Positions 25,458-53,631 of a DNA stretch of 64,000 nt are shown here, in pieces. The stretch lies in the IMG/VR virus record IMGVR_UViG_3300045988_183350. One strand, given 5' to 3'. The first letter of the stretch is position 1. Every line of letters begins with the position of its first letter. The notes beneath the pieces were generated by a model. That model had not been told where the DNA came from. It ran no database searches and saw nothing but the letters and a program-made list of their open reading frames with translations. The DNA comes from a virus. Position numbers and translations under genes: made by a program.

Positions 25458-25459
25458 AT

Positions 25460-26470: not shown

Positions 26471-26503
26471 ATAAGTAATGATTAAAGAAATGAGGACATT
26501 AAA

Positions 26504-33705: not shown

Positions 33706-33723
33706 TAGTTTTACCTCCTAAGC

Positions 33724-34302: not shown

Positions 34303-34319
34303 TAGTTTTACCTCCTGTA

Positions 34320-34898: not shown

Positions 34899-35161
34899 TG
34901 TATTTACCTCATTTCAATTTATATAATCATTATACCACAATAAATTTAAAAGTAAACCTTTTTAAGTGAATTAATGTAGCCTAAAAGTATGCTATAAACG
35001 GGCTATTGGTCGCTATTTAAAAAATAAGCAATGCTTATTGACCACAATAGCGTTTAAAAGCCCATATCAAGCATATATCGCGGCTAATCTTAAGTCTAGG
35101 CTAAATACATAGGCTGGCTTTAAAACGCGATACGGGCTTAATATGGACTATTTAAAGACGA

Positions 35162-35671
35162 TTACAAATTTACTGAATCAGTATCGGCTTTTACAATTGG
35201 CAATTGGTTGTTATGGAAACATTTACTACTGCAAATTAATTGGTCAATATAGGCTTCAGAGGTCTCAACATGGTCGTCGGTATTTGTAACTGACGCTAAT
35301 CGATAAAACTTTCCGCGAGTATAAATCTTATGCAAAATATAAAATCGTGGATTGCGTTTAAGAAACGCTTTTACATTTTTCCTAAACCCTTTAAAGTTGT
35401 CATTTGGGTCAACCTCAATTTCAGTCAAAACAGCTACCTGCCAATAAATTTTTTTGTACTGTTGCACTAATGCAGTTACCACTTCTTCTGTCAAGTAAGC
35501 TTTATAATTTGCTTTGTCATTTGTAATGGCAATAAGATTCGTCATAATGTCTGCGTTATACTCTACTGGTTTAATATAGCCGGCATAATCGGTATAAAGT
35601 TTACATTCCCCGTATTCTTCAACCTCGACTAAAATATCAATCATAAATGTTACAATTTCGTCATTAGTCAT
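35162..35671 (-). CDS. Family-B paralog (169 aa), C-terminal tail ...TDSVNL
   Basis: Paralog alignment (DKANYKAYL, FY). Confidence 0.5.
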   Translation of the reverse strand: MTNDEIVTFMIDILVEVEEYGECKLYTDYAGYIKPVEYNADIMTNLIAITNDKANYKAYLTEEVVTALVQQYKKIYWQVAVLTEIEVDPNDNFKGFRKNVKAFLKRNPRFYILHKIYTRGKFYRLASVTNTDDHVETSEAYIDQLICSSKCFHNNQLPIVKADTDSVNL

Positions 35672-35688
35672 AATTACTTCCTTTCATC

Positions 35689-36444
35689 TTACAGTTCAAA
35701 ACTTACAGGTTTACCAGAGTCCGCATTTACAGGTTTGTCTACTTTTTCAATATAGCCAAACATGCGGTCACAATTATATTTTGGAAGAAAGACTTTTTTG
35801 CCGTCACTAAAGTTTACCTCATATTGGCAAGCGTCACGCTTTGCAAAAATACTTGTGGTAAATGTGAAAATTGAATCCTTGTCAAACTCTGTTAAGTCTG
35901 AAACTCTACTACAAATGTCAAAATCTTTAATGCGAAATGGACCAAGTGTCGTTGTACTATTTAGTTCATCTAAAATGAAATACCTTGCATCCTCATTTTC
36001 AGTGACTATATAACTAAGCATTGAGCCTTTAATAAATGTTTCATTAATTGTCCAAAAATTATCCTCGTCGATGAGATTTGTCATTAATTTTTTAAGATTA
36101 GTGACTCCGGCTTTATTAAATTCGCGCCTACACAAGTTATCAGCCATGCTATACATAAATTGTTTTGTACCGTCATCACCAGTACGAACAAGTATATCGC
36201 CGAAAGCCCGGTTATCACCTGTAAGGGCATTTAATTTTTCAATAAGCTCGGCCTTATTTGACAAACAATTTACTGGAACATTAATCCACGTTTTCATGCG
36301 TGTAAACTTTTTCATAAACTCAAAGTTAATGTAGTAATTACCGGCTTTAGTTTTATAAATACATTCGCAGGTATATTTACTACCACCAGGCATATTCACT
36401 GAATCGCTCAAAAATTGTGTTTCTGGATATTTAAAAGTTGTCAT
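35689..36444 (-). CDS. Family-A paralog (251 aa), C-terminal tail ...KPVSFEL
   Basis: Shares GPFRIKDF and FTFTTSIF motifs with 36555-37277; promoter-leader at 36474-36512 (-). Confidence 0.55.
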   Translation of the reverse strand: MTTFKYPETQFLSDSVNMPGGSKYTCECIYKTKAGNYYINFEFMKKFTRMKTWINVPVNCLSNKAELIEKLNALTGDNRAFGDILVRTGDDGTKQFMYSMADNLCRREFNKAGVTNLKKLMTNLIDEDNFWTINETFIKGSMLSYIVTENEDARYFILDELNSTTTLGPFRIKDFDICSRVSDLTEFDKDSIFTFTTSIFAKRDACQYEVNFSDGKKVFLPKYNCDRMFGYIEKVDKPVNADSGKPVSFEL

Positions 36445-36554
36445 TGTTTAATTCCTCATTTCTTAATTTATAACTATATTATACCAAAATATATTTAAAA
36501 GTAAACCTTTTTGTAAATAAAAAAATTGCATTAATGTGTTAATGCAATTTAAAA

Positions 36555-37277
36555 TTATAGTTCGAAAGCCATAGTGTCAGTTTCAATTTCGTCAGCTGTG
36601 GTTTCTTTTTCCTCGATACGTTCAACATGTTTCCAAGCTGTCTTAAAGTCACCAGCTTTAATAGTAAATGTGTCACCATTATCCTTAGTTACAAGCATAC
36701 GACTTATGGCTCTGTCTTGTCCAAAGTAATTCGTTGTAATTGTAAAAAGCTTACTGTCAAAGTTCTCAAAACCTTTATAATAATTATATGGATGGTCACG
36801 CTTAAACGTGATGAAATCTGTGATTTGGAAAGGTCCCATAGTCACCAAACCATTCAACTCAGTTTGAATTCGAGGGCGAACATTACGATTGTCATGCAAT
36901 TCCAAAATTGCGTCTACATCAGCAACTTGTGCAATCACACGGTCAAACTTAGTCACTAAAAGTTGGCGCAATTTTGCTTTGTCTTCTTTGTCAATGTGCG
37001 GGTAATAATAATATAGACCACCTGCAACGTGAGAATAATGCCTTTGAGTTTTCCAAGTTTGAACCAACGGTTTAAGCTTTTGATTAAGTTCATCCGCATT
37101 TGCAAGCTCATCCACAGGAATACTTAGTGTAACATCTGCCCAAGTGTAGTCAGGACGAACTCTAAAGTATAAATACAATTTATCAGTTTCACGTGTCTGA
37201 ATAATACCTAAGAATGTACTATTTTTTGTGTTAGCTTTAAACTCTTGCAAGTACTTTGCTTCTTTTGATACCGTCAT
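36555..37277 (-). CDS. Family-A paralog (240 aa), C-terminal tail ...DTMAFEL
   Basis: GPFQITDF, FTITTNYF; promoter-leader at 37311-37345 (-). Confidence 0.55.
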   Translation of the reverse strand: MTVSKEAKYLQEFKANTKNSTFLGIIQTRETDKLYLYFRVRPDYTWADVTLSIPVDELANADELNQKLKPLVQTWKTQRHYSHVAGGLYYYYPHIDKEDKAKLRQLLVTKFDRVIAQVADVDAILELHDNRNVRPRIQTELNGLVTMGPFQITDFITFKRDHPYNYYKGFENFDSKLFTITTNYFGQDRAISRMLVTKDNGDTFTIKAGDFKTAWKHVERIEEKETTADEIETDTMAFEL

Positions 37278-37449
37278 TACTTATGTCCTCATTTCTTAAT
37301 TTATATTTACATTATACCATAAAATTTTTAAAAGTAAACCTTTTTATAGTAAAAAATTGTACTAATGTACTAATACAATGATACAAGAAAAAGCCGTTTT
37401 AATCTACTTTTATATGGCGAAGCTATTGTTTAATGGATTAAAATGGCTT

Positions 37450-38160
37450 TTATAAATCAAATGCAATCGCATTTTTAGTAGTTGTTTCAGGTTTAAAATC
37501 GACAGGTTCACTTAATCGTACAAGAGTCGCTAAATATTTAAACTGAAAGAAATCTTTAAAGCCATCAGGTGATTCAAATAAAACACGGCTAATTTTTGAA
37601 GGGTATTCAACATCAATCGCCAATTTAAAGGTTGGATAATCAGTAACCCATTGTTTAACTTTTGCGGGCAAACTACCACCAAATCTGCCAGTAAATGTGC
37701 GATAACCTAATGAAACAATGGTTGATGCTCGCTCTTTAATGTCAGCATTAGCATGAATCGAAAATGTAATGTCAGGATATTGAGCAAAAATACCTTTTAG
37801 CGTACTAATTCCATTTGTATCAATGAAGTCGCGAATATCAAGTCCAACTTTGCGAAAACGTGAAAATTCGACTGTTACAACACCGTCATAGTCATCCCAA
37901 TCGTCTTTGTCACTGTAAATTAGTTTAACTAAATCAGTAAAAATGTCATATAATTCCTCATTCATATAAGGTTTTTGAACATGAATTTTAAAATCATTTC
38001 TTTTAAGAACTGGTCCAACCAATGATTCAACTTTAAAATACAAGTCGAAACTATGCAAAGCTGGGTAATACTCAATGCCATCAAGCCCAGTTTTGCAATA
38101 CTCAGACAAATAAGTAATCGCTTGTTTAGACAGTGGCTCAACGCCATGTGTTTGTGTCAT
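37450..38160 (-). CDS. Family-A-related protein (236 aa), C-terminal tail ...NAIAFDL
   Basis: ORF with 11-nt spacing to the upstream gene; same C-terminal tail motif. Confidence 0.5.
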   Translation of the reverse strand: MTQTHGVEPLSKQAITYLSEYCKTGLDGIEYYPALHSFDLYFKVESLVGPVLKRNDFKIHVQKPYMNEELYDIFTDLVKLIYSDKDDWDDYDGVVTVEFSRFRKVGLDIRDFIDTNGISTLKGIFAQYPDITFSIHANADIKERASTIVSLGYRTFTGRFGGSLPAKVKQWVTDYPTFKLAIDVEYPSKISRVLFESPDGFKDFFQFKYLATLVRLSEPVDFKPETTTKNAIAFDL

Positions 38161-38171
38161 AAAAGTCCTCC

Positions 38172-38939
38172 TTATAAATCAAAATTTGTATTGCCATTAA
38201 TAATAGCCACAGGTTTAATATAAGGCATAATAAGGTCTAAATATTTAACCGGAAATTCGAATGTATCACCTTGTGTAATGTCTGTGCGAACGACACTAAA
38301 CGCATTGCGATGCAAGAAACTAGTTGTAAATGTAAATTCGCTCATCTTATCAAAATGTGATACAATATGTTTGTTTACAAAAAGCTTTTGACTATAAGAT
38401 AACCCAATATCAATAGACTTAACAAATCCGTCATAGTCGTCAAAACAATAAGTAGGTGTTGTGATAATTGAATTCATCTCAGCTAAAATATAATCATAGC
38501 CCCAAATGTCATAAGCATTGTCACTAGCTGATACCTTGTCGACAAAGTTTTTAATATCTGTTAGCCCTTGTTTTCGCAAATATGTACCAAAATCAGACGA
38601 GTATGTACTCCAATAAATTTCGAAACATCCATAATCCAACAACTGATTTTTCAAATTATTATTGTTAGACGCTAAAATCATATTTTCAATTTTGTCAGCC
38701 AGATTTTGTACAAGTGATTGGTCTTTCCAAGCATTCAAATTAAATGTAATTGATACAGTCTCTTTAGTAAATGGCAATTTAACATAAAATTTAAATAAAT
38801 TGACGGTATTGCCATTGATAACCTCACGTGAGATTTTGTTTATAGTAAATGCCTTTGGATGAGTACGTACTAATTCTTTCAAATACGCAAATGTTTTTTC
38901 ATCTAATGTTTTAATATTATTATTTAGTTGTTCAGTCAT
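38172..38939 (-). CDS. Family-A paralog (255 aa), C-terminal tail ...GNTNFDL
   Basis: Closely paralogous to 38951-39694 (FAYLKELVRTHPKAF; EFTFTTSFLHRNAFSVVRT). Confidence 0.55.
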   Translation of the reverse strand: MTEQLNNNIKTLDEKTFAYLKELVRTHPKAFTINKISREVINGNTVNLFKFYVKLPFTKETVSITFNLNAWKDQSLVQNLADKIENMILASNNNNLKNQLLDYGCFEIYWSTYSSDFGTYLRKQGLTDIKNFVDKVSASDNAYDIWGYDYILAEMNSIITTPTYCFDDYDGFVKSIDIGLSYSQKLFVNKHIVSHFDKMSEFTFTTSFLHRNAFSVVRTDITQGDTFEFPVKYLDLIMPYIKPVAIINGNTNFDL

Positions 38940-38950
38940 AAAATCTTCCT

Positions 38951-39694
38951 TTATAAATCAAAACTTGTATTGTTTGCTTGCATGTTAGGCGTGAGTTCCA
39001 CATAAGGCATAAGAAATTCCAAATATTTAGTTGGAAATTCGACAATATTGCCTTGTGTTTTTGTGATTCTTACGATACTGTGAGCAGGCTTATATATAAA
39101 GCTCGAAGTAAATGTAAATGTGTCAGATTCAGCTAATTTTGAAACAATATTTTTATTACAATAATTTCTAGCTTTTGATGGCAAGCAATTTACATCAGTA
39201 ACAAAGCCGTCAAAGTTGGTAAAATGATAAACTGGTGTCGTAATAAGCGAATTAATCTCAATGAAAATTAAATGTTCAGCATCAATATCCACAGCACTTG
39301 ATTCTGATACTTTATCAAAGAATGTCGATACCTGTGTCAAGTTAAGATTTTTCAAATAAAACTCACAATCGGCCTTGTACAAATCCCAGCTAATAGTTAC
39401 TAAGCCGTCATTACGAGCTAACATATCTTTAAGCTCGTCATAATCCGACCCTAAAATGATATTGTCGATTTTGTCAGTTAAATTTGTAACAAATTCTTTG
39501 TCGCCTAATTCATTTATACTAAATGTAATATTAACTTCAGACTTTGTGAAAGGCAATTTAGCAGCGAACTCAAACAAGTAATAAGCTCGGCTATCGCTCT
39601 TGTTAATATCCCGATAAATGCAACACAAGCGAAATGCCTTTGGATGTGTTCGTGACAGTTCTTTTAAGTAATTAAAAGCTTTTTGTTCAGTCAT
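38951..39694 (-). CDS. Family-A paralog (about 247 aa), C-terminal tail ...NNTSFDL; first gene of the array
   Basis: Start MTEQKAF after the conserved leader GAAATGAGG (the track ORF start at 39709 is the in-leader ATG); promoter at 39726-39760 (-). Confidence 0.55.
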   Translation of the reverse strand: MTEQKAFNYLKELSRTHPKAFRLCCIYRDINKSDSRAYYLFEFAAKLPFTKSEVNITFSINELGDKEFVTNLTDKIDNIILGSDYDELKDMLARNDGLVTISWDLYKADCEFYLKNLNLTQVSTFFDKVSESSAVDIDAEHLIFIEINSLITTPVYHFTNFDGFVTDVNCLPSKARNYCNKNIVSKLAESDTFTFTSSFIYKPAHSIVRITKTQGNIVEFPTKYLEFLMPYVELTPNMQANNTSFDL

Positions 39695-39759
39695 ATGAAT
39701 TAACCTCATTTCTTATTTAGTCATTTTATTATAACACGTCTTATTTAAAAGTAAACCTT

Positions 39760-39995
39760 TTTATAAAAATAACTTATTTTAAAATTAAGTTTGTAACTTT
39801 ATATAAAAATCGTAAAACACGCCCGATTAGACCAATTTTTCACATAAAATGTACGCGAAGTCTTTAATACCAATGCTTTAATAGCTATGCTATCTTTTAA
39901 TTGGTACTCAACGCTTCGTTCGAGTTTTTACTTTAAAATTGATTTTCGTCGGGCAAAAAATCGAATTTCGGATAATTTTATAACATACTAAAAGT
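39760..39995. repeat. ~240-bp inverted-repeat arm (partner at 48600-48845, about 85% identical)
   Basis: Direct comparison, e.g. 'aaataacttattttaaaattaagtttgtaacttta..cgtaaaaca/gcgcccgattagaccaatttt...ctaaaagtatgctata'. Confidence 0.7.
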
Positions 39996-40039
39996 ATGCT
40001 ATAGGCAAAAATAAAAAAATCTTTAAATTTATTCAAATA

Positions 40040-40083
40040 AACGGCTTACAGTAAATGAATTTTATGATATAATAAAGATATAA
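40040..40083 (+). promoter_or_regulatory. Conserved-type promoter (CGGCTTACAG ... TTATGATATAAT)
   Basis: Motif match upstream of CDS 40109. Confidence 0.5.
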
Positions 40084-40108
40084 ATTTAAAAAGAAGAGGT
40101 ACATTTCA

Positions 40109-40351
40109 ATGTATAAAATTGATAACTCCGTAAGTCTTAATGACTTCGACACAATTTCACAATATATCAAATGGCTTTGCAAGCGTAAAGGTATTACGAT
40201 TAAAAAAATGTGCGAGAATACCGGCTATAAGTATAATACAATCGCAGGTAATTATAAAAATCAATATTTAAGTCGTCAAACGTTGGTTGACGTGATTAAT
40301 TACTTGGAAGGCGATTTTAATATCGCTATGAACTTGCCTTACAGAAAATAA
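40109..40351 (+). CDS. Small hypothetical protein
   Basis: 80 aa; RBS AGAGG. Confidence 0.45.
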   Translation: MYKIDNSVSLNDFDTISQYIKWLCKRKGITIKKMCENTGYKYNTIAGNYKNQYLSRQTLVDVINYLEGDFNIAMNLPYRK

Positions 40352-40442
40352 AAGAAAGGACTACTTTTAAAAGTAGACCTTGATACAAAAGATGAATCTC
40401 TGTATTTATTATATCAAGGTTTACCGAAAAAGTAAATAGTTT

Positions 40443-42149
40443 ATGATGAAATTATTTGATACTAAAGATGATTTTAAAAATCATATCAAATCACTCGTCC
40501 GTAAAGCTAGTCCATTATTAAATGAAGGCAAACCTGTTACAACTCTTAGAACTCCTGAAGTAGTCGAACATCTTGATACATGTTTAGACTTAATTTATGA
40601 AAAAGAAATTGTCGAGAGTACCGTTACATTCAGATGGTATTATCGCAATTATGACTCATATCTTTACAATGAATTAACGTCTAATGAACTAAAGGCACTT
40701 ATCAGGTTAATTGCGAAAGGTATTGGTGCAAAAAATTATGATTTAGCTAAAATCGCTTACAGTGTCGTCGACGAATTAAATGCCGGCGCATCGTATGACG
40801 AACTTAAAGCTAAACCATACAAAAAACCACCATGGAATTATGTACTAACAGTTAATGGGATATTCAATCTCAAATCAGCTGAATTCTATACAATTGATTC
40901 AGATAAATACAAACAGTTAGTTACAACATATCACTTTTTTAATAATGTCACAATTAGCTATTATGAACAACCACATAATAAGTCGAAATTTGAATTGTAT
41001 AAAACATACATGGACTCATTATGCAACGGTGAGGAAGACTTACAAAAGTTACTCAAACAAGGAATGTTTGCCGTTATCGAAGGTAATGGACGACATAAAT
41101 ATTTTATGATTTCCGGAGACCCAGGTATTGGGAAATCTACGTTAGGCTATTTGTTTATGGCACTAGCTGGACAAGCAAATACTAAAATATTGAATATTGA
41201 CAAATTAGCAAATAATAACGCAATTAATGCAATTTCGCCGCAGACAAGATTGATTATTGGCGACGACTTAAAAAATAATGCGAAAATTTCAGACGATGCA
41301 ATTACAAACTATAAAATTTTAGTGGATGGTAATGCGTTGTCAGCTGAAGTTAAATACGAGCACAATCGTATTATTAAAACAAATGCGTTTTGGATGCAAA
41401 TGATGAATGAAGCACCAAGGATTTACGAGGCCGGTGAAGCAATTACAGACCGAACGATTTTTATTCACTTAAAAGGGAAAAATCACAGGAATGACAAAGA
41501 AGCCGCAGCTAAAGAAATGGCTAAACGTTTAGACGAGTATTTAGGCCGACGTGGGAATGGCATTGACCAGGAATTTATTAATGAGATTGCGTCAGATGTA
41601 TTAAGAAGTATTAAATACTTTGACGAATTTGATATTCCAGAGTCAATTAAGAAAGCAACAGCTAATATGGTTAATGAAAATAACTGGATGCACCAGTTTA
41701 TTGACCATGCCACAGAAGTTGGTTTGTTCGAATTTAATACATTGAAGCAATCAACAATTGTCTCATGTGTGGAACTGTTTTTACGTGAGAATAATCCAGG
41801 CATGACTATTCCAGCAGCAAGACGGATTGTTAAAGAGTGGAAAAAACAGCTGGATGATTTGGGTTATAAAGAAGAAACTGTTCGTCAACGTAGTGTACCA
41901 GAGATTGATTACAATGCAGACATTATAAAAAATTATATGTTTGAAGGATTCAATGACAAAAACACAATGACAACAATGTATTCTAAAACAAGAGGCAGAA
42001 TTGACGACAAAAATATTAAGAAATTTGAAGCCGAACTTGAACAAGGGTTGGTTCCAAAAGAATTGTCAATACGACAAATGATTATGCTTGAGCATTTAAT
42101 CAGTAAAGGCAATTTAACTGCAGCAAGTTATAAAACAGATGCAAAATGA
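40443..42149 (+). CDS. P-loop NTPase (putative replication initiator / SF3-like helicase)
   Basis: Walker A 'ISGDPGIGKSTLGY'; large N-terminal domain; followed by a 2.4-kb repeat-rich non-coding region. Confidence 0.45.
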   Translation: MMKLFDTKDDFKNHIKSLVRKASPLLNEGKPVTTLRTPEVVEHLDTCLDLIYEKEIVESTVTFRWYYRNYDSYLYNELTSNELKALIRLIAKGIGAKNYDLAKIAYSVVDELNAGASYDELKAKPYKKPPWNYVLTVNGIFNLKSAEFYTIDSDKYKQLVTTYHFFNNVTISYYEQPHNKSKFELYKTYMDSLCNGEEDLQKLLKQGMFAVIEGNGRHKYFMISGDPGIGKSTLGYLFMALAGQANTKILNIDKLANNNAINAISPQTRLIIGDDLKNNAKISDDAITNYKILVDGNALSAEVKYEHNRIIKTNAFWMQMMNEAPRIYEAGEAITDRTIFIHLKGKNHRNDKEAAAKEMAKRLDEYLGRRGNGIDQEFINEIASDVLRSIKYFDEFDIPESIKKATANMVNENNWMHQFIDHATEVGLFEFNTLKQSTIVSCVELFLRENNPGMTIPAARRIVKEWKKQLDDLGYKEETVRQRSVPEIDYNADIIKNYMFEGFNDKNTMTTMYSKTRGRIDDKNIKKFEAELEQGLVPKELSIRQMIMLEHLISKGNLTAASYKTDAK

Positions 42150-44636
42150 ACTTATTGATTTAAGTTTATTTTTTTTTTTATATAAAAACTTGACAAAAAA
42201 TCAGAAGCGTGCGTGAATGGGTTTTTTCATGCACAAATTTAGTGAATTAACTGGTACGTATACTGTCGAGCTAACTCTAATTATTACTGGTGAATTACAG
42301 GATATTTACTGTAAGTATTGGTAATCATACTGTTCATGATACTGTGCATGAACTTTTTTTCATGCACGAATTTAGTGAATTAACTGGTAGACATACTATC
42401 AAGATGACGTTGGTTATTACTGGTGAATACAGATAAATTACAGGATATTTACAGTAAGTATTGGTAATTATACTGTTCATGATACTGTGCGCGAACTTTT
42501 TTCGCGCACAAACTTAACCTATTACTTGATACTGTTGGTACAGGGATGATACTGGTAAAAATAGGTAAATTTTAGGGTATTTACCGTAAGTATTGGTAAT
42601 CATACTGTTCATGATACTGTGCGCGAACTAGGGTATACTTTCGTACGCGCACACTTTCGCGCACGCTTCCTCAAGTACTGGTATTCTTACGTAAATTAAC
42701 AGTGAATTTAGGTGTACTACCGTACACGCACACCTTCACGCACACCGTCCTGACTATTGGTAACCATGAGTTATGCACACTTCGTGTGCATATAAATTTA
42801 AAAAATAGTACAAAAGAATATTTTTTTAACTTTTATTTTATTAAAAAAAAAGTTGTATTTCATATAGGTTACAGCCAATTTTTGTGAATTCACGCACACT
42901 GCGTGTGCGGAAGGTAAGAGTACCAGTAATTAGAAGGTTGTGCATGAAGGTGTGCGTCTAATTTTGCTCACGCACAAATTTGAATTTGCGAGGTCGACAG
43001 CGAGCTGTCTCTCAATCAAATGGGAAATTGTGGTCCGAAAAAATTACGCGCACACTCTTACGCACACATATACTGTTTGCTTGATAGTCAATACATTGGT
43101 CAAATTTATGGTTAAAAAATAAATTTACCGTATGATAGTGTAAATTGACTGGTAATCAACTAAAGTAAAAGAGTTGTGCACGTAATTAGGTGTACTTACG
43201 TACACGCACAGTTCATGCACAGTTACGCACAGTAATTGACTGTCATATATCCGTCAAATTTATGGTTAAAAAATAAATTTACTGTATCATACCGTAAATT
43301 GGCTGGTACCCAACTAAAGTAAAGAGATTGTTCATATAATTAGGTATACTTACGTACGCGCACAACTTAATGATTTTGCGTAAATATTTGGCTAATCAAA
43401 ACACATACTCAGATAAATTATACAAAGAATTACTCGCACATATGACTAATCCTAAACGCATTACCGTATAAATTATAAGCAGATACGGTTATAACATTAA
43501 ATGATTCAAGTAAAACTTAAGACAAAGTTATTGGATGAGTTAAGACATTTAATGATACAAAAATAACTAATTGCAAAAAACCTTAAATAAGTCTAAATGA
43601 ATGATGAGGTAGAGGTATGTGGCAGGCCATAGACTATTATGTTTAATAGTTTAAAAGCAGAATTTGCTAGCACTTTGCAGTCATGCAGTAAATTTTTTCA
43701 AGAAATAATATCCTGAATTTTTTTGGGATATTATTTTTTTATTTCAAGAAACTTGTAAAAATAAATTTTTGTGCAGTAAAAGCGCACGGCAAAAAAATAC
43801 TGCACAATTTTGACTATAATGATTGAGTACCTGTAAATACAGTTAAATATTCTTTTGATTTTGTTTAATTTGATTTAATTTTATGAAATTTTCATTGTAC
43901 TGGTACTCAATACCTTTATTATACTGTGCGCTATAATAGTATACCAAAATTTGGTGCACAGTTTGGTGCACACGCTGTTGACTATTGGTACACAACAGTT
44001 ATTTGACTGTTGATTTCAGGTATACTATTATAGCGCACAACTTGGTGCACAAATATCTTTTGCTTGGTACTGTTACAATCCACACACGTTGTGTGCGGTA
44101 TTTTTTAAAATTTATATCAAAAGAATATTTTTTTATTTTTTATTTTATTAAAAAAAAAGTTGTATTTCATATAGGTTACAGCCTGTTTTCCTGTTTTGCT
44201 GCACGCAGCGCGTGCAGACATCAACTATACCAGTTAAAAGGTATGTGTGCAGTAAGTTGTGCGGTAAATTTTCTTGGTGCACAAATTTGACTTTGCCAAG
44301 TCGACAGCGCGCTGTCGCTCAATCAAAGCGTCAATCTTGAAAGACCGAAAAATAGTGCACAACTTGCTGCACAGGTATCTTGACAGTAAGAGTACCAATC
44401 CATACGGCTGGTTTTCTGTAAATCGCAATTTTATACCAAAATTCAACTGTATAGTCTGTGTACCAAATAAAAGTAAGTAAAATCCAAAAATCATGCACCA
44501 AAAATTTTTTCCTGCACGCAATATTAACCTTTACCTTGATTACCAGTAGTTCGGCTGAGATTTTTTACTGCACAACTTAATGATTTTGCTTCAATTTTTC
44601 CTGAAAAATAAAAAATAAGCAGTAAAATTTTACTGC
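42150..44636. repeat. Repeat-rich non-coding region (second origin / packaging / terminal-repeat candidate)
   Basis: No credible ORF; three copies of TGGTAATCATACTGTTCATGATACTGTGC (about 42320, 42460, 42600); many GTGCGCG/TGCACAA boxes; two palindromes GTCGACAGCG(A/C)GCTGTC (42992-43010, 44302-44320); ~100-bp unit duplicated at 43105-43205 / 43270-43370; ~70-bp unit duplicated at 42810-42880 / 44110-44180. Confidence 0.7.
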
Positions 44637-44999
44637 TTAATAATAGTAATAATATCCATTCCATTCGTACATTCCGTAACCAAATTCATCTGTGTAATTG
44701 TACCAATAACCGTCATTGCCATAATAACCATATGAAATGTAATTACCTTGATAATCATAATACTGAAATTCGTTCGGATAACTCACATAAATTGAATCCG
44801 TTGTCATTGCCTGATTATCCTCTGCATAATAATTATTGTCATTATAAGTATTCACGTTTGTGTTATTTACATATGACCATGCTGGTGGTTGATGATTTCC
44901 ACCCATTACCTCACCTTCATCAGCTGACGCTAGTACAGGCATCATTGCGGGCAATACTGATACAGTTCCGAGTGCAATTGTTTTCAACTTGTTTGTCAT
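44637..44999 (-). CDS. Secreted Tyr/Asn/Gly-rich small protein
   Basis: Signal peptide MTNKLKTIALGTVSVLPAMMPVLASA; C-terminal half is more than 30% Tyr; RBS AAAGGGGA. Confidence 0.45.
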   Translation of the reverse strand: MTNKLKTIALGTVSVLPAMMPVLASADEGEVMGGNHQPPAWSYVNNTNVNTYNDNNYYAEDNQAMTTDSIYVSYPNEFQYYDYQGNYISYGYYGNDGYWYNYTDEFGYGMYEWNGYYYYY

Positions 45000-45282
45000 A
45001 AAATAAATCCCCTTTATTTAGTATATCCCCATCATATCACATTTTCCTGTAATTTTAAATAGAATCAATTTTATAGCCCTTAAATCAGCCCGTATTGCGT
45101 CCAAAAACATTTTTAGTATAATCATATACCCACGCCACCAGACGCGATACAGAGCAAATTAGAGCTGTTTAAAGCAATGTAGCCTAAAAGTATGCTATAG
45201 TAAAAAGTCAACTAAAAAAGGCCGTAGACCCTATTTCACACTTAAGCAATGCTTAATTAAAACATAGGTTTGTTGGCCTTTT

Positions 45283-45672
45283 TTAGTTGACTTTTTTAGT
45301 CCTTGCGATTGTCGCTAAATAGTGTTCGTGATAATATGTATTAAACGTATCAAACACAGTTCTTGTTTCGGTGACATTCACATTATATTTACTCACAATA
45401 TCACGAATTTTTGAAACAGTTTCACTTAAGTTATCAATAGTTTTGTCAATTTTTTTGACGGCATCTTTGCCATATTGTTTGACAAGTGATTTTTTCAAAT
45501 CGTTTAGCTCATTTATCTTGTCGTCAAGATATGTTGTTGATGCCAAAATCTCGTCGATATTCTCAGACAAAGCTGTAAGTTCTTTGTCTAATCCCTTTGA
45601 GATATTTTCGAGTTTATCTGGATTTTTCAGCGAATTACCTTCTTGATATGACGTGTCAATTTTTGTAATCAT
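45283..45672 (-). CDS. Coiled-coil hypothetical protein
   Basis: 129 aa; RBS AAGGGAG. Confidence 0.45.
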   Translation of the reverse strand: MITKIDTSYQEGNSLKNPDKLENISKGLDKELTALSENIDEILASTTYLDDKINELNDLKKSLVKQYGKDAVKKIDKTIDNLSETVSKIRDIVSKYNVNVTETRTVFDTFNTYYHEHYLATIARTKKVN

Positions 45673-45683
45673 AATAAACTCCC

Positions 45684-46349
45684 TTAAATCATCTCAATCA
45701 AATAATTATTTGTCCAGCTGATTTCCATGCTTGGAATGTCTGAATTATCCTCTGTTTCGAGATTGAATTCAAGACCTTCTTTAGTGAGAAAATCCTCTAA
45801 AACAAATGTTAACTGTGTTCGTAGTTCTGACAAATACTGAATTCGCAATTTATTATTGATTATAGTTGAATTTTGAATTTTATAATGATTTTGCAACAAA
45901 CTGCGATTCATTAAAGCAAGTTTGTCTGTCAAATCTTTTAATGTTGGACAGTCTGTATCTTTAAAGTGGTCTCTGTATTTGATATTTTTTAAATACTCTG
46001 AAATCACTGCTTTAGTGATTAAACCTGTTTTTGAGTATGATGGTGAATAACCAAGAAGTTTTTCGAATAGGTCAATGTCCCAAGAATCAGATGATACAAA
46101 GAAGGTCGTATCACCTTTGCGAATCTTTTCAAGCATTTGCGTTTTAATATCATTGATAAAAATATCTTTTTTAAGAGACGTTTTTAACGCGGTCTCAAAC
46201 GTCGTATGTTGCAATTCAAAATATTTTTTTGTGTCATTAATAATATAATTGGCAAACTTAGCTGACAGGTCGTCAATAATCTTTGCAATACGTTTTTGGC
46301 GTTCTTGATAATCTTTATATTCTTTTTTTAGTTCGTCTTTAAAACTCAT
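45684..46349 (-). CDS. Hypothetical protein
   Basis: 221 aa; RBS AGGAGACG; 4-nt overlap with the upstream gene. Confidence 0.45.
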   Translation of the reverse strand: MSFKDELKKEYKDYQERQKRIAKIIDDLSAKFANYIINDTKKYFELQHTTFETALKTSLKKDIFINDIKTQMLEKIRKGDTTFFVSSDSWDIDLFEKLLGYSPSYSKTGLITKAVISEYLKNIKYRDHFKDTDCPTLKDLTDKLALMNRSLLQNHYKIQNSTIINNKLRIQYLSELRTQLTFVLEDFLTKEGLEFNLETEDNSDIPSMEISWTNNYLIEMI

Positions 46350-46999
46350 TCATCGTCTCCTGTATTATTTAGTGATTTAATGTCATCTTCACTTTGTGCG
46401 ATTGTTGTTAATCCTGTACGTACTGGGTGAATGTATAATCCACCATTTTCATAAGTACTAGCTTCAACTGTGATTTTACTTGGTTCACGATTTAGTTTAT
46501 AGAGGGCATATTCAGCGGCATTGATTCGGTAAGTTGTTCCAGAATTTTGGAAAGTGACAAAGTAGTCATCACTGTTTGGATTCTTCTCAACTTTTTGTAC
46601 AATACCTGTAATAAAGAATTGTGTCTTGCGTGGATTATGATTGGTCACCAGGTCTTTAAAAGGATAAACTTTATAAGGCAATCCAGAGTTGTTGTATTGG
46701 GTTACGGCATCTTCAAGGTGAGCATCCATTTCTTGTGGCGACAAGAAAGTTGATTTGCCAATATAATGCTGATTGTATTTAGCCACTACATTTTTATTGT
46801 AGTTGTGGAACATAACCGGAATGGCAAAAGCAGTGATAACGGCGATGACAGCTATGATTGCTGAGACTTTGGCACGTTTTTGATTTAGTGCAAAGTCATC
46901 TTGATGTTTAAAGTATTTAGCTGAGCCAAGAGTGTCTCTGAAATAATAGGTTGAAAAACCTGCTGCGACAATAGCAACAATAATTAATATAATAGTCAT
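46346..46999 (-). CDS. Membrane-anchored hypothetical protein
   Basis: N-terminal TM (MTIILIIVAIVAAGF) plus a second TM; RBS GAAAGGA. Confidence 0.45.
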   Translation of the reverse strand: MTIILIIVAIVAAGFSTYYFRDTLGSAKYFKHQDDFALNQKRAKVSAIIAVIAVITAFAIPVMFHNYNKNVVAKYNQHYIGKSTFLSPQEMDAHLEDAVTQYNNSGLPYKVYPFKDLVTNHNPRKTQFFITGIVQKVEKNPNSDDYFVTFQNSGTTYRINAAEYALYKLNREPSKITVEASTYENGGLYIHPVRTGLTTIAQSEDDIKSLNNTGDDE

Positions 47000-47084
47000 A
47001 AGATATAAGTCCTTTCATTAATTAAAGTTTAGTTTTATCTTATCTTTCAATAACTTAATTATATCACGTTTAAAATAAAAGTAA

Positions 47085-47108
47085 ACCTAGGTTTACTTTT
47101 ATGATTTT
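47085..47108. promoter_or_regulatory. Palindromic -35 region AAAAGTAAACC-TAG-GTTTACTTTT shared by divergent promoters (-10 TATGATATAAT on the plus strand at 47110-47120; ACGTGATATAAT on the minus strand)
   Basis: Direct reading; the sequence is its own reverse complement. Confidence 0.55.
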
Positions 47109-47157
47109 TATGATATAATAAAGATAACTAAATACCATTTAGAGGAGAGACGATTAA

Positions 47158-47925
47158 ATGAAAATAGCGGTTATTGGTGACACGCATAAGAATTTTCACA
47201 AGTTCCAAGAAACAGTCATGTATGCAAAACAAAAGCTTGACGCATCTGTTTTGATACAAGTTGGCGATTTTGGATTGACTGGTGATTTCACTTATTATTT
47301 AGAGCAGGTTGAATCATTTTTAAATATAGTAAAAATGAAACTGTATTTTATAGATGGAAACCACGACAACATTGACTGGTTACAATCGAAGGCTATGCGT
47401 GCTGGGCTTACGGCAACTAAAATCAGTAATCATATTTATTATATGCCAAGAGGTTCGCAATTAAATATTGATGGCAAACAGTTTTTCTTTTGCGGTGGTG
47501 GTTTTTCAGCGAATTATAAAAAGCTAACACCTAATGTCACTTATTGGTCAGGGGAAACTTTAACACAAGAAGACCTTACACGTGTAAAGGAAGCTTACCA
47601 TACGCAAGTGAAGCCTTGTGATTATTTTATTTCACACGACACAATTCCTGTATTTAACCATTTGATTTCAATTATACCTAAGTGGTTTGTGAAATGGAAG
47701 TGGCCGACAGACTATAATCACAGACAGTATTTAAAAGAAATGTTTGACTTGTCAGGAGCTAAAACAATTATTCATGGACATTATCATAGTCCGTTGCAAT
47801 TGACTGACGACGGCATTATTGACATAAGTTTGGGCAGTGAAAAGAGTAGTGTAAATGACCGCTGTTATCTGATTGACACAACGAAACCTACTTGTAAATT
47901 GTCAGACAAATTCACTAAAATTTAG
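47158..47925 (+). CDS. Calcineurin-like metallophosphoesterase (Ser/Thr protein phosphatase-like)
   Basis: Motifs GDTH, GDFG, GNHD, HGHYH. Confidence 0.65.
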   Translation: MKIAVIGDTHKNFHKFQETVMYAKQKLDASVLIQVGDFGLTGDFTYYLEQVESFLNIVKMKLYFIDGNHDNIDWLQSKAMRAGLTATKISNHIYYMPRGSQLNIDGKQFFFCGGGFSANYKKLTPNVTYWSGETLTQEDLTRVKEAYHTQVKPCDYFISHDTIPVFNHLISIIPKWFVKWKWPTDYNHRQYLKEMFDLSGAKTIIHGHYHSPLQLTDDGIIDISLGSEKSSVNDRCYLIDTTKPTCKLSDKFTKI

Positions 47926-48228
47926 TGGAAAAAGTTAGCTTTTAGGGCTTACTTTTTTTCAATTTATGATATAATAAAAACATAAATAAAGTTAAGTGTT
48001 GCAAGCCTTTAACAAGCCTGCGATGACTGAAAATATGGTGAAAGGTAACTTATAAAATGCCAAAGGAATTCATTCAATCAATCAACAATTTGGAACCCCA
48101 AGCGACTACAGAAGACATGCAAAAACTGTATGACAGTTTCATGACATTCTGTGCCCAACCTGCACCTGAGATGGTCGCATAATTTTTTTATTTTATTTTA
48201 TTTTATATTAAGGAAGGAACATAATAAT

Positions 48229-48567
48229 ATGTTAAGATTTATTTTTAAAGTAGCGGGAACAACTTTTCGTCCAGAGGCTGTAAAGAAAGTAGCCGACAAA
48301 CTAGGTCGTGGCACTCAGCCTTATGTAAAACTCGAAAAAGAGCCTGACAATCCGTATGACCCAAAAGCCGTTAAAGTAATTGCCGATGGGGAATTTATTG
48401 GTTATGTGCCACAATCTGAGGTTGACAAAGTTCATGACATTTTGGATAACTCTGAAAATACTGTGATTGTGAATACACTTCGTCGTACAGGGTCAGGCTA
48501 TCAAAATATTGGGTTCTTGGTAACGACATATTATGGTCCTGATTATGACGAGGACGAAGTGATTTAA
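48229..48567 (+). CDS. HIRAN-domain protein
   Basis: 'VAGTTFRPEAV...PDNPYDPKAVKVIADGEFIGYVPQSEVDKVHDIL' fits the HIRAN consensus (the track ORF begins at 48151; start chosen after RBS AAGGAAGG). Confidence 0.55.
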   Translation: MLRFIFKVAGTTFRPEAVKKVADKLGRGTQPYVKLEKEPDNPYDPKAVKVIADGEFIGYVPQSEVDKVHDILDNSENTVIVNTLRRTGSGYQNIGFLVTTYYGPDYDEDEVI

Positions 48568-48599
48568 AACTTGTATTTTACATACAGGTTTTTTATTTT

Positions 48600-48845
48600 T
48601 ACTTATAGCATACTTTTAGCATGCTATAAAATCGCCTAAAAATCGTCTTTTTTCGCCCGACAAAATCAATTTTGTAGACAAAACGTGTACGAAGCCTTGT
48701 CTACCAATTAAAAGATAGCGTAGCTATTAAAGTTTTGGTATTCAAAGCTTCGCGTGAGTTTTTGTTAAAAAATTGGTCTAATCGGGCGCGTTTTACGATT
48801 TTGTGATAAAGTTACAAACTTAATTTTAAAATAAGTTATTTTTAT
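48600..48845. repeat. Inverted-repeat arm, partner of 39760-39995
   Basis: Reverse complement aligns with 39760-39995. Confidence 0.7.
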
Positions 48846-48914
48846 AAAAAGGTTTACTTTTATTAAATAATGTGGTATAATTAGTTTATCAACGAATGAA
48901 AAGGAGATAAACAA

Positions 48915-53530: not shown

Positions 53531-53631
53531 GTGGTTATTTTTTTCATATAAGGCTTACTTTTTTCGCGATTCATGGTATAATAAGTATATGTAAGATAAA
53601 ACAAAATGCAAGGAAAGGATTTAAAAAAAAT

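What the first reader, a model, noticed from the sequence alone, without database searches (positions are those of the whole stretch)
39760..48845. ~240-bp inverted repeats bracketing an 8.6-kb segment, plus a dispersed family of CTAAAAGTATGCTATA-containing intergenic elements
Seen directly: 39760-39995 and the reverse complement of 48600-48845 align over ~240 bp at roughly 85% identity. They bracket the NTPase gene, the repeat-rich region, four minus-strand genes, the metallophosphatase and the HIRAN gene. The 16-mer core CTAAAAGTATGCTATA (or its complement) also occurs in two other intergenic regions (34976-35000 and 45180-45200) with ~40 bp of flanking similarity (..AAGCAATGCTTA..). Every copy sits just upstream (in the transcribed direction) of a conserved early promoter. 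Inference: this is either a MITE-like mobile repeat, a site for an invertase or recombinase (the bracketed 8.6 kb would be an invertible or excisable cassette), or a second class of regulatory element (for example a middle/late promoter or activator site) placed in front of early promoters.
Basis: partly seen in the sequence, partly recalled or inferred. Interest (0 to 1): 0.55.

Follow-up and report, generated by a model that had tools for sequence, protein, structure and literature searches.

The report
Hairpin-plus-promoter modules flanking phage helicase genes
The two inverted ~270-bp repeats are real, but they are two copies of a recurring non-coding module (a long DNA/RNA hairpin, a conserved 16-base box and an early promoter) that marks gene-cassette boundaries in a group of uncultivated giant phages; they are not a flip-switch or a jumping element.

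Summary
Observation confirmed and extended. Window 39746-40019 and the reverse complement of 48589-48862 align over 274 bp at 85% identity, and the 16-mer CTAAAAGTATGCTATA occurs four times (0.17 expected).

Each arm has the same parts: an outward-reading early promoter, a ~55-bp conserved AT-rich block, a 134-158-nt imperfect hairpin capped by AGC-NNN-GCT, and the 16-mer box. All four 16-mers in the window sit beside such a long capped hairpin, and no other such hairpin exists in the 64 kb.

The family is absent from Rfam, the phage collection and bacterial reference genomes. It recurs on related metagenomic contigs of up to 371 kb: 86 distinct 16-mer copies and 28 hairpin-A copies. Hairpin stems covary.

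Hairpin A lies almost always within 250-600 bp of a paralogous HTH + P4/D5-type helicase cassette. In relatives the 16-mer contains an extended -10 promoter box directly upstream of genes.

Three syntenic genomes show one orientation, no recombinase, no target duplications and no presence/absence polymorphism. Invertible-cassette and MITE readings are therefore not supported.

Best reading (0.4): a promoter/terminator punctuation module, analogous to T4 PeSLs. Main rival (0.28): origin-type stem-loops for the SF3 helicase, as in plasmid pRN1.

The parts
39746..40019 (+). Left arm of the inverted repeat (whole homologous module)
   Evidence: 274-nt alignment to rc of 48589-48862, 84.7% identity, E=4e-80; orthologous copies in L070:9299-9605 and L086
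48589..48862 (-). Right arm of the inverted repeat (whole homologous module, read on the minus strand)
   Evidence: orthologous copy L070:18200-18487
39728..39755 (-). Outward early promoter of the left arm (TTTACT-16-TATAAT with TG), drives gene 39709<-38951
   Evidence: scan_promoters_terminators; clade-wide -35 box AAAGGTTTACTTTT at 39747-39760
39761..39818 (+). Conserved AT-rich block with TTAAGTTTGTAAC (39785-39797) and AAAATCGTAAAAC (39806-39818). On the minus strand the latter is the U-tract GUUUUACGAUUUU that follows the hairpin
   Evidence: 88-97% identical among all five arms, paralogous and orthologous; motif map; sequence read
39821..39954 (.). Hairpin A, left copy: 134-nt imperfect hairpin, 39 pairs, GC-rich base CGCCCGA/TCGGGC, apex AATAGCTATGCTAT
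   Evidence: fold z = -4.0 on both strands; apex-anchored fold; covariation across 9 and 28 copies
39979..40003 (+). SH box, left arm: palindrome TATAACATAC-TAAAA-GTATGCTATA containing the 16-mer (39988-40003)
   Evidence: family alignment of 86 distinct copies
40045..40073 (+). Canonical promoter of the HTH-helicase operon, about 40 nt downstream of the 16-mer
   Evidence: the same 16-mer-to-ATG spacing (101-106 nt) in 10 copies from two lineages
48568..48590 (+). Short terminator hairpin of the HIRAN gene. Its U-tract (48591-48603) lies inside the repeat homology; its stem does not
   Evidence: sequence read; homology boundary
48604..48628 (-). SH box, right arm (16-mer 48604-48619 on the minus strand)
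48642..48799 (.). Hairpin A, right copy: 158 nt, 48 pairs. On the + strand it is followed by CGUUUUACGAUUUUGUG
   Evidence: fold z = -8.9 / -6.5
48853..48881 (+). Outward early promoter of the right arm (TTTACT-17-TATAAT with TG), drives 48915->
34977..35086 (+). Copy 1: 16-mer (34981-34996) plus a 110-nt capped hairpin (apex AAGCAATGCTT). It lies between gene 35162-35671(-) and the promoter box 34948-34961 of gene 34898<-
45173..45326 (+). Copy 3: 16-mer (45184-45199) plus a long capped hairpin (47-nt arms 45202-45248 / 45250-45296, GGCC...GGCC followed by a T-run). It is the bidirectional terminator of gene 45283-45672(-)
   Evidence: (I5)
40109..42149 (+). HTH (40109-40351) + P4/D5-family SF3 NTPase (40443-42149): the cassette type with which hairpin A co-occurs
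   Evidence: Pfam HTH_26, DUF5906; PHROG DNA primase families; TIGR01613 P4-family primase C-terminal domain, E=1.8e-18, below cutoff; association map
42150..44636 (.). ORF-free repeat field between the arms, carrying 15 AYTGGTA heptamers: candidate iteron/origin region. It shares the heptamer with hairpin A (39868-39874, 39900-39906, 48702-48708)
   Evidence: partly replaced by a TnpB gene in L070

Best explanation
The two arms are paralogous copies of a clade-specific, vertically inherited intergenic boundary module. They are not a switch and not a transposon.

Read in the direction of the promoter at its outer end, each arm has four parts: (i) the 16-mer (SH) box; (ii) a 134-158-nt hairpin with a GC-rich clamp at its base, followed by a U-tract (GUUUUACGAUUUU); (iii) a ~55-bp conserved AT-rich upstream block; (iv) a sigma-A-type early promoter (TTTACT-16/17-TGnTATAAT).

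Proposed mechanism (inferred): the module punctuates transcription. The long hairpin stops or insulates transcription arriving from the neighbouring unit, and the promoter restarts it. The 16-mer is an extended -10 box (TATGCTATAAx) that acts as a second promoter or a factor-binding site. The arms are inverted only because each is fused to an outward-reading operon (39709<- and 48915->).

Shown: the anatomy, the family, structural covariation of the hairpin, intergenic location, canonical promoters, constant synteny, and association with HTH-helicase cassettes.

Inferred: termination, promoter activity of the 16-mer, and the strand that matters.
For: Anatomy and homology.

Promoters: canonical promoters sit at the outer end of each arm and in front of the HTH gene. 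The -35 box AAAGGTTTACTTTT is the general promoter box of the whole clade.

Terminator-like features: in L081 a solitary hairpin-A unit starts at the stop codon of gene 10421-10894 and, in that direction, ends in CGGGCG + UGUUUUUCGAUUUUG. In L085 hairpin A lies between two convergent helicase genes. In many loci it lies at the 3' end of a gene. Window copies 1 and 3 are the hairpins directly downstream of genes 35162-35671 and 45283-45672, and they precede the next promoter.

16-mer as promoter: in the L081/L082/L087/L091-93 arrays it is preceded by TTTTACA, carries TATGCTATAA(T/C/G), and lies 7-36 nt upstream of the ATG of consecutive genes that have no other promoter box. 24 of 86 distinct copies have a co-directional ORF starting within 200 nt, versus 9 of 86 in the opposite direction. 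88 of 89 copies are intergenic.

Selection: the promoter-proximal 55 bp are 88-97% identical in all five arms, while the hairpin is 77-89% identical. That points to selection on the upstream region.

Published analogue: PeSL promoter + stem-loop cassettes of T4-like phages, with experimentally shown promoter and terminator activity (PMC2839356, PMC4122927).
Against: The U-tract after the hairpin is interrupted (4-5 U in the first 8).

A dedicated short terminator already precedes the module at the right arm and at helicase 3' ends in L073, so a second terminator of over 130 nt is not obviously needed.

The left arm lies between divergent promoters, where no transcript is known to arrive.

A plain terminator does not need the conserved sequence blocks seen here: apex AATAGCTATGCTAT, GATTAGGTCAAATTTT and TTAAGTTTGTAAC.

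G·U versus A·C mismatches (49 vs 21) weakly favour the strand opposite to the one that would terminate toward the outward promoter.

The last base of the putative -10 is T in only 19 of 86 copies (TATAAA in 44). Most 16-mers point into a hairpin, not into an ORF.

The tight linkage of hairpin A to helicase cassettes and the shared AYTGGTA heptamer are not predicted by pure transcriptional punctuation.
Confidence: 0.4

Rival explanations
1. Origin-type stem-loops. Hairpin A is a cis-acting DNA site where the adjacent P4/D5-family SF3 helicase (with its small HTH partner) assembles, as the ~100-bp stem-loop next to the repressor + SF3-helicase Rep operon does in plasmid pRN1. The ORF-free AYTGGTA field beside the helicase gene would be the iteron part of the same system. 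The two arms would then be a bipartite pair of replication sites around it.
For: In loci fetched only through the SH pattern, nearly every hairpin-A copy lies within about 250-600 bp of an HTH/helicase paralog. SH-only loci have no helicase.

The third copy in the ODIA genome (L081) sits upstream of a paralogous HTH (31% identity) + helicase (23% identity, DUF5906 + Pox_D5) pair.

The helicase hits TIGR01613, P4-family primase C-terminal domain.

AYTGGTA: 41 observed vs 19.6 ± 4.5 expected. 23 of the 41 lie in the two ORF-free regions that follow helicase paralogs, and an inverted pair forms the upper stem of hairpin A. In relatives the heptamer is enriched only in module/helicase loci (z = 3.7-5.3 versus about 1), and 22 of 28 A copies carry it at a fixed position.

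Stems covary while flanks and apex are conserved. The same pattern is described for the pRN1 origin, where the stem-loop is necessary and sufficient, and similar stem-loops are noted next to such genes in phages (PMC4234260). A short terminator lies between gene and stem-loop in pRN1, as it does here.
Against: Hairpin A copies are about 81% identical while the adjacent helicases are only 23% identical. This argues for a common trans factor or homogenisation, not cognate initiator-origin pairs.

Three to four modules within 16 kb (L073, L096, L101) is odd for origins.

The right arm is 6.4 kb from the helicase gene, and the window's first helicase paralog (1-1032) has no hairpin A.

No primase/prim-pol domain was detected in the N-terminal part.

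The association could simply reflect co-duplication of cassettes with their flanking regulatory DNA. This model does not explain the 16-mer arrays or copies 1 and 3, which are not next to helicases.
Confidence: 0.28
2. Small structured RNA genes. Each arm is a self-contained transcription unit in which the SH extended -10 box drives a ~165-175-nt RNA made of a short leader and hairpin A, ending at the U-tract. In the L073 lineage the unit would be a ~300-nt RNA with hairpins B and A. Copies 1 and 3 would give ~70-100-nt hairpin RNAs antisense to the 3' ends of the convergent genes.
For: In both lineages an SH box with a good TRTGnTATAAA sequence points into the hairpin orientation that is followed by the U-tract.

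Compensatory changes occur in 11 of 27 pairs. 615 Watson-Crick cells versus 84 non-Watson-Crick in 28 copies.

The leader AAUAAAGUCACUCAGUACCAGU is conserved after most 16-mers.

The left arm lies between divergent promoters, where only a self-contained unit makes sense.

The window already carries one large ncRNA (GOLLD).
Against: No Rfam family matches.

The G·U/A·C asymmetry points to the other strand.

The relative orientation of hairpin A and the SH box differs between lineages. One sub-family has its apex flipped.

The solitary L081 copy has no SH box.

Covariation comes mostly from one split between two lineages, and quasi-palindromes covary on both strands. There are no expression data.
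Confidence: 0.15
3. MITE/PATE-like non-autonomous mobile element that has spread through the phage genomes, possibly mobilised by an IS200/IS605-type enzyme.
For: The family is multi-copy, intergenic, non-coding and hairpin-forming. SH boxes are co-oriented within contigs. TnpB (OrfB_IS605) genes occur in related loci. A solitary ~195-bp unit sits in an unrelated context (L081).
Against: The arms are at orthologous sites in three genomes, with divergence similar to the flanking DNA. No insertion polymorphism and no consistent target duplication were seen. No TnpA is present. The TnpB element has its own RNA (Transposase-1, RF03014) and no SH or hairpin-A motifs at its ends. There are no copies in bacterial reference genomes and none in IMG/VR beyond chance.
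Confidence: 0.05
4. Recombination sites of an invertible or excisable 8.6-kb cassette, through a site-specific invertase or frequent homologous flip-flop between the arms.
For: 274-bp inverted homology is enough for homologous recombination. Four clustered sites (39842-39856) are shared by the two arms of one genome and differ from both arms of L070, which suggests a conversion patch.
Against: The orientation of the segment relative to outside genes is the same in window, L070 and ODIA/L086. No resolvase/invertase/integrase domain was found in the ten ORFs in and around the segment. Eight informative sites support plain orthology of left with left and right with right. Arm identity is only 79-90%. 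Inversion would put the HTH-helicase operon and its neighbours behind the wrong promoters.
Confidence: 0.03

Closest known systems
PeSL (promoter-early stem-loop) cassettes of T4-like phages (Arbiol, Comeau & Krisch 2010, PMC2839356; Comeau et al. 2014, PMC4122927)
   Same: Both are repeated composite intergenic cassettes. Both combine a strong sigma-70-like early promoter, an AT-rich upstream region and an adjacent stem-loop at terminator position. Both flank variable or paralogous genes and can provide about 100 bp or more of dispersed homology.
   Different: There is no sequence or lineage relationship: this is a Gram-positive-type phage clade. The hairpins here are 110-158 nt rather than short G/C stems, and they carry conserved sequence blocks. 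An extra 16-mer box is present. The indels seen between close relatives do not have their breakpoints at the modules. Hairpin A is tied to one gene class, the HTH + helicase cassettes.
pRN1-type replication origin stem-loop next to a repressor + SF3-helicase Rep operon (PMC4234260)
   Same: Both have a small DNA-binding protein gene plus an SF3 helicase-family gene, with a large stem-loop of about 100 nt or more adjacent. In both the stem is conserved in structure rather than sequence, with conserved flanks. In both a short terminator lies between gene and stem-loop.
   Different: Origin function is untested here. No prim-pol domain was detected. There are many copies per genome, at both 5' and 3' sides of cassettes. 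The hairpin sequence is much better conserved than the neighbouring helicases.
Phage P4 alpha primase-helicase with two separated cis sites (ori and crr)
   Same: The helicase belongs to the P4-family primase C-terminal domain (TIGR01613 hit). Two homologous cis elements bracket the helicase gene, as ori and crr do around alpha. That P4 detail is recalled from my own knowledge and I could not verify it in the searchable library.
   Different: From memory, P4 ori/crr are arrays of an octamer iteron and not long hairpins. No primase domain was found here. The resemblance is a lead, not a test.
Intrinsic (Rho-independent) terminators and RNase III-type intergenic processing hairpins of phage early transcripts (T7, SP82/SPO1; from established knowledge)
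   Same: Both are intergenic hairpins flanked by A- and U-tracts, located between transcription units.
   Different: The hairpins here are about ten times longer than ordinary terminators. The U-tract is interrupted. The only RNase III-like hint in the window (53527-54711, Pfam E=0.001, below cutoff) was not confirmed.

Membership tests
PeSL-type promoter/terminator cassette | Sigma-70-like early promoter with an AT-rich upstream region inside the repeated unit | tested here: met
   TTTACT-16/17-TATAAT with TG at 39755-39728 and 48853-48881. Conserved AT-rich 55 bp upstream.
PeSL-type promoter/terminator cassette | Adjacent stem-loop that terminates or attenuates transcription | tested here: inconclusive
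   A stable hairpin with a GC clamp and U-tract is present. The U-tract is weak and the terminator scan was negative. Function is untestable in silico.
PeSL-type promoter/terminator cassette | Indels or replacements between close relatives have breakpoints at the cassettes (recombination points, mini-circles) | tested here: not met
   The differences among window, L070 and L086 map to paralogous genes (33717-34851, 38270-38940) and to the TnpB/repeat field (42179-43367), not to the arms. There is only a 4-site conversion patch.
MITE / PATE | Insertion polymorphism and target-site duplication | tested here: not met
   The arms are at orthologous sites in three genomes. Flanks of the 195-bp unit in the window and in L081 show no consistent duplication.
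MITE / PATE | Ends related to an autonomous IS (here IS200/IS605-TnpB) present in the same genomes | tested here: not met
   The TnpB loci carry Transposase-1 RNA but no SH or hairpin-A motifs at their ends. No TnpA was seen.
Site-specific invertible segment (Hin/Gin-type or shufflon) | Recombinase gene in or next to the segment | tested here: not met
   No resolvase or integrase domain in ten ORFs between 38951 and 49097. Four of them have no annotation at all.
Site-specific invertible segment (Hin/Gin-type or shufflon) | Both orientations found in populations or relatives | tested here: not met
   Same orientation in window, L070 and L086. Reads of the source samples could not be examined.
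pRN1-type origin stem-loop | Operon of a small DNA-binding protein plus an SF3-helicase replication protein | tested here: met
   HTH_26 + DUF5906/TIGR01613. Paralogous pairs in L081, L073, L096 and L101.
pRN1-type origin stem-loop | Large stem-loop adjacent to that operon, structure conserved and stem sequence variable | tested here: met
   Adjacency within about 250-600 bp in most copies. 11 of 27 pairs have compensatory changes. 28-copy alignment.
pRN1-type origin stem-loop | Stem-loop required and sufficient for replication; Rep carries a primase (prim-pol) domain | not testable with these tools
   Replication cannot be tested. No primase domain was detected by Pfam, PHROGs or NCBIfam in residues 1-130, which counts against strict membership.
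Any Rfam RNA family | Covariance-model match | tested here: not met
   No hit at gathering threshold in the window or in nine related loci. The best E-value hit on the arm is 0.038, to a yeast snoRNA model.
Sigma-A extended -10 promoter (16-mer box) | TRTGnTATAAT with a gene or transcript downstream | tested here: inconclusive
   TATGC-TATAA is invariant. The last base is T in 14 of 86 copies (plus 5 TATAGT), A in 44, G in 10 and C in 10. A co-directional ORF starts within 200 nt in 24 of 86 copies. Arrays lie directly upstream of genes in L081.

The most novel reading that the evidence does not exclude
The long capped stem-loops are origin-type assembly sites for P4/D5-family SF3 helicases. 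This uncultivated jumbo-phage clade would then carry arrays of semi-autonomous 'HTH + helicase + stem-loop' replicon-like cassettes. In the window, the two arms plus the AYTGGTA iteron field would form a multipartite replication locus, a phage counterpart of the pRN1 stem-loop origin and of P4 ori/crr. The 16-mer promoter would supply transcriptional activation or priming.
Probability: 0.25. Interest if true: 0.7.

Novelty: new variant of a known kind. Interest (0 to 1): 0.45.

Why it matters
This lineage has no close DNA relative in the phage collection or IMG/VR, and most of its proteins have no PHROG match.

If the module is transcriptional punctuation, it extends the PeSL idea to a Gram-positive-type jumbo-phage clade. 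The idea is that portable promoter/terminator cassettes define and shuffle gene cassettes. It would also give ready-made promoter and terminator motifs for annotating these genomes.

If the hairpins are instead helicase assembly sites, they would mark the replication origins of a whole group of giant phages. They would also explain why these genomes hold several paralogous HTH-helicase cassettes. That is directly testable with purified proteins and ori mapping.

Either way, the result removes a false lead (an invertible 8.6-kb switch). It replaces that lead with a defined family of 86 sixteen-mer copies and 28 hairpin-A copies that can be modelled and searched.

Tried and rejected
- Phage collection: megablast and blastn of the segment and of the arm gave no match.
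- Exact-pattern scans of IMG/VR: the 16-mer gave 68 single, chance-level hits and the hairpin-base 20-mer gave none.
- The search for related loci with the helicase and the metallophosphatase in IMG/VR found nothing.
- Rfam at gathering and E-value thresholds returned only GOLLD, tRNAs and, in relatives, Transposase-1 RNA next to TnpB.
- Host REP/MITE origin is rejected: only two chance hits in 185,579 species genomes.
- A phage RNA polymerase or sigma factor that might read the 16-mer was not found among ten large window proteins. This covers only 64 kb of a genome of more than 190 kb.
- The RNase III lead (53527-54711) was not confirmed.
- Exact-protein look-ups of the flanking genes, meant to find alternative neighbour arrangements, returned nothing, probably because the start codons differ. 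Two look-ups were wasted.
- The identical first 55-59 bp of the two arms are not a recent conversion tract, because the block is equally conserved in orthologous arms.
- The idea that AGC-NNN-GCT-capped long hairpins are the genome's general terminator style is rejected for the window: only the four 16-mer-associated hairpins have this form. Such caps do occur on ordinary terminators in more distant relatives.
- The first capped-hairpin scan returned nothing because my gapless stem extension was too strict. It was redone by folding.
- The strand assignment of hairpin B by G·U versus A·C counts was uninformative, at 3 vs 3.
- TTGTAA-16-TAAAAC as a promoter for hairpin A is rejected. The '-10' is CAAAAC, AAAAAC or TGAAAC in many copies, and it reads better as the complement of a U-tract.

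Full report
**1.

The repeat finder reports inverted arms 39746-39960 / 48648-48862 (215 nt, 85%) and 39955-40018 / 48589-48652 (64 nt, 81%). Sensitive blastn joins them into one 274-nt alignment at 84.7% identity, E = 4e-80 (alignment).

The 16-mer CTAAAAGTATGCTATA occurs exactly four times, at 34981+, 39988+, 45184+ and 48604-. The chance expectation is 0.17.

- a Cro-like HTH (40109-40351);
- a D5/P4-family NTPase (40443-42149; DUF5906, and TIGR01613 below its cutoff);
- an ORF-free repeat field (42150-44636);
- four unannotated minus-strand genes;
- a metallophosphatase and a HIRAN protein.

**2. What the window is**

It carries 21 tRNAs and a GOLLD RNA. Its promoters have a Gram-positive look. 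It also encodes LPXTG-anchor, FtsX and PcsB-like proteins.

It has no DNA relative in the phage collection or IMG/VR. Homologues of its helicase (36-95% identity) lie on metagenomic contigs of up to 428 kb. This is therefore an uncultivated, jumbo-sized phage lineage.

**3. Anatomy of an arm**

Each arm has four parts.

(i) At its outer end is a canonical promoter reading outward: TTTACT-16/17-TATAAT with an upstream TG. These lie at 39755-39728 on the minus strand and 48853-48881 on the plus strand. The -35 box AAAGGTTTACTTTT is the general promoter box of the whole clade.

(ii) Next is a ~55-bp AT-rich block. It is 88-97% identical in all five arms available, whether paralogous or orthologous.

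(iii) Then comes a 134-158-nt imperfect hairpin, which I call hairpin A (39821-39954 and 48642-48799). It has a GC-rich base (CGCCCGA/TCGGGCG) and the apex AATAGCTATGCTAT. Folding z-scores range from -4 to -8.9.

(iv) Last is a short palindrome whose loop and 3' half are the 16-mer, followed by an A-run.

The inner boundary of the homology cuts through the terminator of the HIRAN gene. The terminator's U-tract lies inside the repeat and its stem lies outside. This suggests the left arm was copied from a right-arm-like context.

In the whole 64-kb window only four long hairpins are capped by AGC-NNN-GCT, and they are exactly the four that accompany the four 16-mers. The family unit is therefore the 16-mer plus a long capped hairpin.

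**4. The family outside the window**

The 95%-identity relative L070 and the ODIA contig (L086) carry the arms at orthologous positions.

A more distant lineage (L073-75; helicase 53% identical) has a ~330-bp module in this order:
1. SH box;
2. TTAAGTTTGTAAC;
3. hairpin A;
4. hairpin B;
5. SH box.

A 20-nt SH core is absent from 185,579 bacterial species genomes apart from two chance hits. It occurs on 23 metagenomic stretches, often several times per contig and co-oriented.

I collected 86 distinct 16-mer copies and 28 distinct hairpin-A copies. 88 of 89 SH copies are intergenic. The conserved core is the 16-mer itself together with a flanking T/A-run. The other half of the palindrome varies.

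Hairpin A covaries. 11 of 27 pairs show compensatory changes. Across the 28 copies there are 615 Watson-Crick cells against 84 non-Watson-Crick cells. Its apex and 5' flank are conserved in sequence.

No Rfam family matches these elements.

**5.

*Inversion.* Synteny across the left arm is identical in the window, L070 and L086. No recombinase domain occurs in or beside the segment. Eight informative sites support plain orthology of the arms. Four clustered sites (39842-39856) suggest one short conversion patch.

*MITE.* I found no insertion polymorphism, no target duplication and no host copies. The TnpB element of relatives has its own RNA and lacks these motifs.

*Regulatory element.* This is the closest of the three, as the next two sections show.

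**6. Evidence on function: transcription**

In L081 a solitary ~195-bp hairpin-A unit (81% identical to the arms) begins at the stop codon of a gene. Read in that direction, it ends with the GC clamp followed by UGUUUUUCGAUUUUG. The arms have the same clamp and U-tract in the direction of their outward promoter.

Hairpin A also lies between convergent genes and at many gene 3' ends. Window copies 1 and 3 are the hairpins just downstream of genes 35162-35671 and 45283-45672.

The 16-mer contains TATGC-TATAA. From established knowledge, this matches the Gram-positive '-16 region' extended -10 consensus, TRTGnTATAAT. The canonical promoters of this phage carry the same consensus.

In arrays of paralogous genes in L081, L082, L087 and L091-93 the 16-mer is preceded by TTTTACA. 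It lies 7-36 nt upstream of each ATG, with no other promoter box present.

In ten copies from two lineages the 16-mer sits 101-106 nt upstream of the ATG of an HTH-helicase cassette, about 40 nt before a canonical -35 box.

Several points count against this reading:
- The last -10 base is T in a minority of copies.
- Most 16-mers face a hairpin and not an ORF.
- The left arm lies between divergent promoters.
- A short terminator already precedes the module in several places.

**7. Evidence on function: link to the helicase**

A tblastn map shows that the L073-type contigs are arrays of paralogous HTH + D5-like helicase cassettes separated by these modules.

In loci fetched only through the SH pattern, nearly every hairpin-A copy is within about 250-600 bp of such a cassette. 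SH-only loci have none. The L081 copy sits upstream of a paralogous HTH (31% identity) and helicase (23% identity) pair.

The heptamer AYTGGTA is enriched in the window: 41 observed against 19.6 ± 4.5 expected. Fifteen copies lie in the ORF-free field beside the helicase. Eight lie in the ORF-free region after the other helicase paralog at the window start. An inverted pair forms the upper stem of hairpin A.

In relatives the heptamer is enriched only in module/helicase loci, and 22 of 28 hairpin-A copies carry it.

A published precedent exists. Plasmid pRN1 has a repressor + SF3-helicase Rep operon with an adjacent ~100-bp stem-loop. That stem-loop is necessary and sufficient for origin function and is conserved in structure but not in sequence. 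The authors report similar stem-loops next to such genes in phages (PMC4234260).

Against a cognate-origin reading, the hairpins are far better conserved (81%) than the neighbouring helicases (23%). Three or four modules also occur within 16 kb.

**8. Verdict**

The arms are two paralogous copies of a clade-wide, vertically inherited boundary module.

The explanation that covers all members of the family is transcriptional punctuation: a long insulating or terminating hairpin, an extended -10 box and an early promoter. It accounts for the arms, window copies 1 and 3, the SH-only arrays, and modules at the 5' ends, at the 3' ends and between convergent genes. It is analogous to the PeSL cassettes of T4-like phages, whose promoter and terminator activities were shown experimentally (PMC2839356, PMC4122927). 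I put this at 0.4.

The main rival, at 0.28, is that hairpin A is an origin-type assembly site for the SF3 helicase. A self-contained small-RNA gene is third at 0.15. The MITE (0.05) and invertible-cassette (0.03) readings are poorly supported.

The strand on which the hairpin acts is unresolved. G·U-type mismatches outnumber A·C-type 49 to 21 on one strand, but the counts are not independent and come from about five sites. The same test on hairpin B was uninformative.

**9. Novelty and interest**

The element family is undescribed: there is no Rfam match, no database match, and nothing in the library on this phage group. Its most likely role is a variant of a known kind. Interest is moderate (0.45).

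It would rise if the helicase-origin reading proved right. These modules would then mark replication origins, and possibly semi-autonomous replicon cassettes, in a group of giant phages.

Noticed in passing
window 19391-19848 (+), and 15263-20103: A GOLLD RNA (RF02032, 165.7 bits) has a tRNA-Tyr embedded at 19460-19536. It sits inside an array of 21 tRNA genes.
   Followed up: no
window 42150-44636: A 2.5-kb ORF-free repeat field lies directly downstream of the helicase gene. It contains 80-nt, 120-nt and 224-nt repeat families and two ~240-nt palindromes (42723-42960 and 44031-44266). It carries 15 AYTGGTA heptamers whose orientation switches near 44.1-44.2 kb, so it is a candidate iteron-type origin. 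In L070, about 1.2 kb of it (window 42179-43367) is replaced by a TnpB (OrfB_IS605) gene.
   Followed up: partly
window 1-4004: A second D5-like helicase paralog (cut by the window start; 58-1032, DUF5906 + Pox_D5) is followed by a 3-kb ORF-free region of 25-28% GC. That region holds tandem arrays of the promoter -35 box AAAGGTTTAC at 21-bp spacing (1813-2113, 3432-3947) and eight AYTGGTA heptamers. The '-35 box' may also be a protein-binding iteron.
   Followed up: no
L073, L074, L088, L096, L101, L102 (whole loci): Related contigs carry arrays of two or three paralogous HTH + D5-like helicase cassettes within 10-16 kb, including a 481-aa HTH-helicase fusion at L073:6378-7823. It is unexplained why a phage keeps so many copies.
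   Followed up: partly
L073:242-452, L083:2047-2300, L099:10572-10830: One sub-family of hairpin A has its ~110-nt apical part inverted relative to its flanks and base stem, a 'flip' form of the quasi-palindrome.
   Followed up: no
window 33133-39709 (minus strand): An array of paralogous 190-255-aa genes of unknown function varies in copy number between close relatives. Window 33717-34851 is absent from L070 and L086, and 38270-38940 is absent from L086. This is consistent with unequal recombination between paralogs.
   Followed up: partly
window 45087-45175 (minus-strand sense): An ~90-nt non-coding block (…CTTTAAACAGCTCTAATTTGCTCTGTATCGCGTCTGGTGG…) lies next to the 16-mer of copy 3. It is conserved in L070, L073, L074, L083 and L099, and even in L071, which lacks the 16-mer. 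Its function is unknown.
   Followed up: no
window 20606-27478: The phage carries host-like cell-envelope genes: an 853-aa coiled-coil protein with an LPXTG anchor, an FtsX-like permease and a PARP-like protein. A PcsB-like coiled-coil protein lies at 7522-8520. These point to a Gram-positive (Lactobacillales-like) host.
   Followed up: no
L073:13145-13204, L099:3578-3637: Transposase-1 RNA (RF03014, 69.9 bits) lies just downstream of TnpB genes. It probably belongs to their guide (omega) RNA and is unrelated to the hairpin modules.
   Followed up: no
L076:5480-5560, L070:6940-7010, L086:5530-5600: Ordinary-looking terminators in relatives are also capped by (A/G)ATAGC-NNN-GCTAT, the same apex as hairpin A. 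This suggests a clade-wide preferred hairpin cap.
   Followed up: partly
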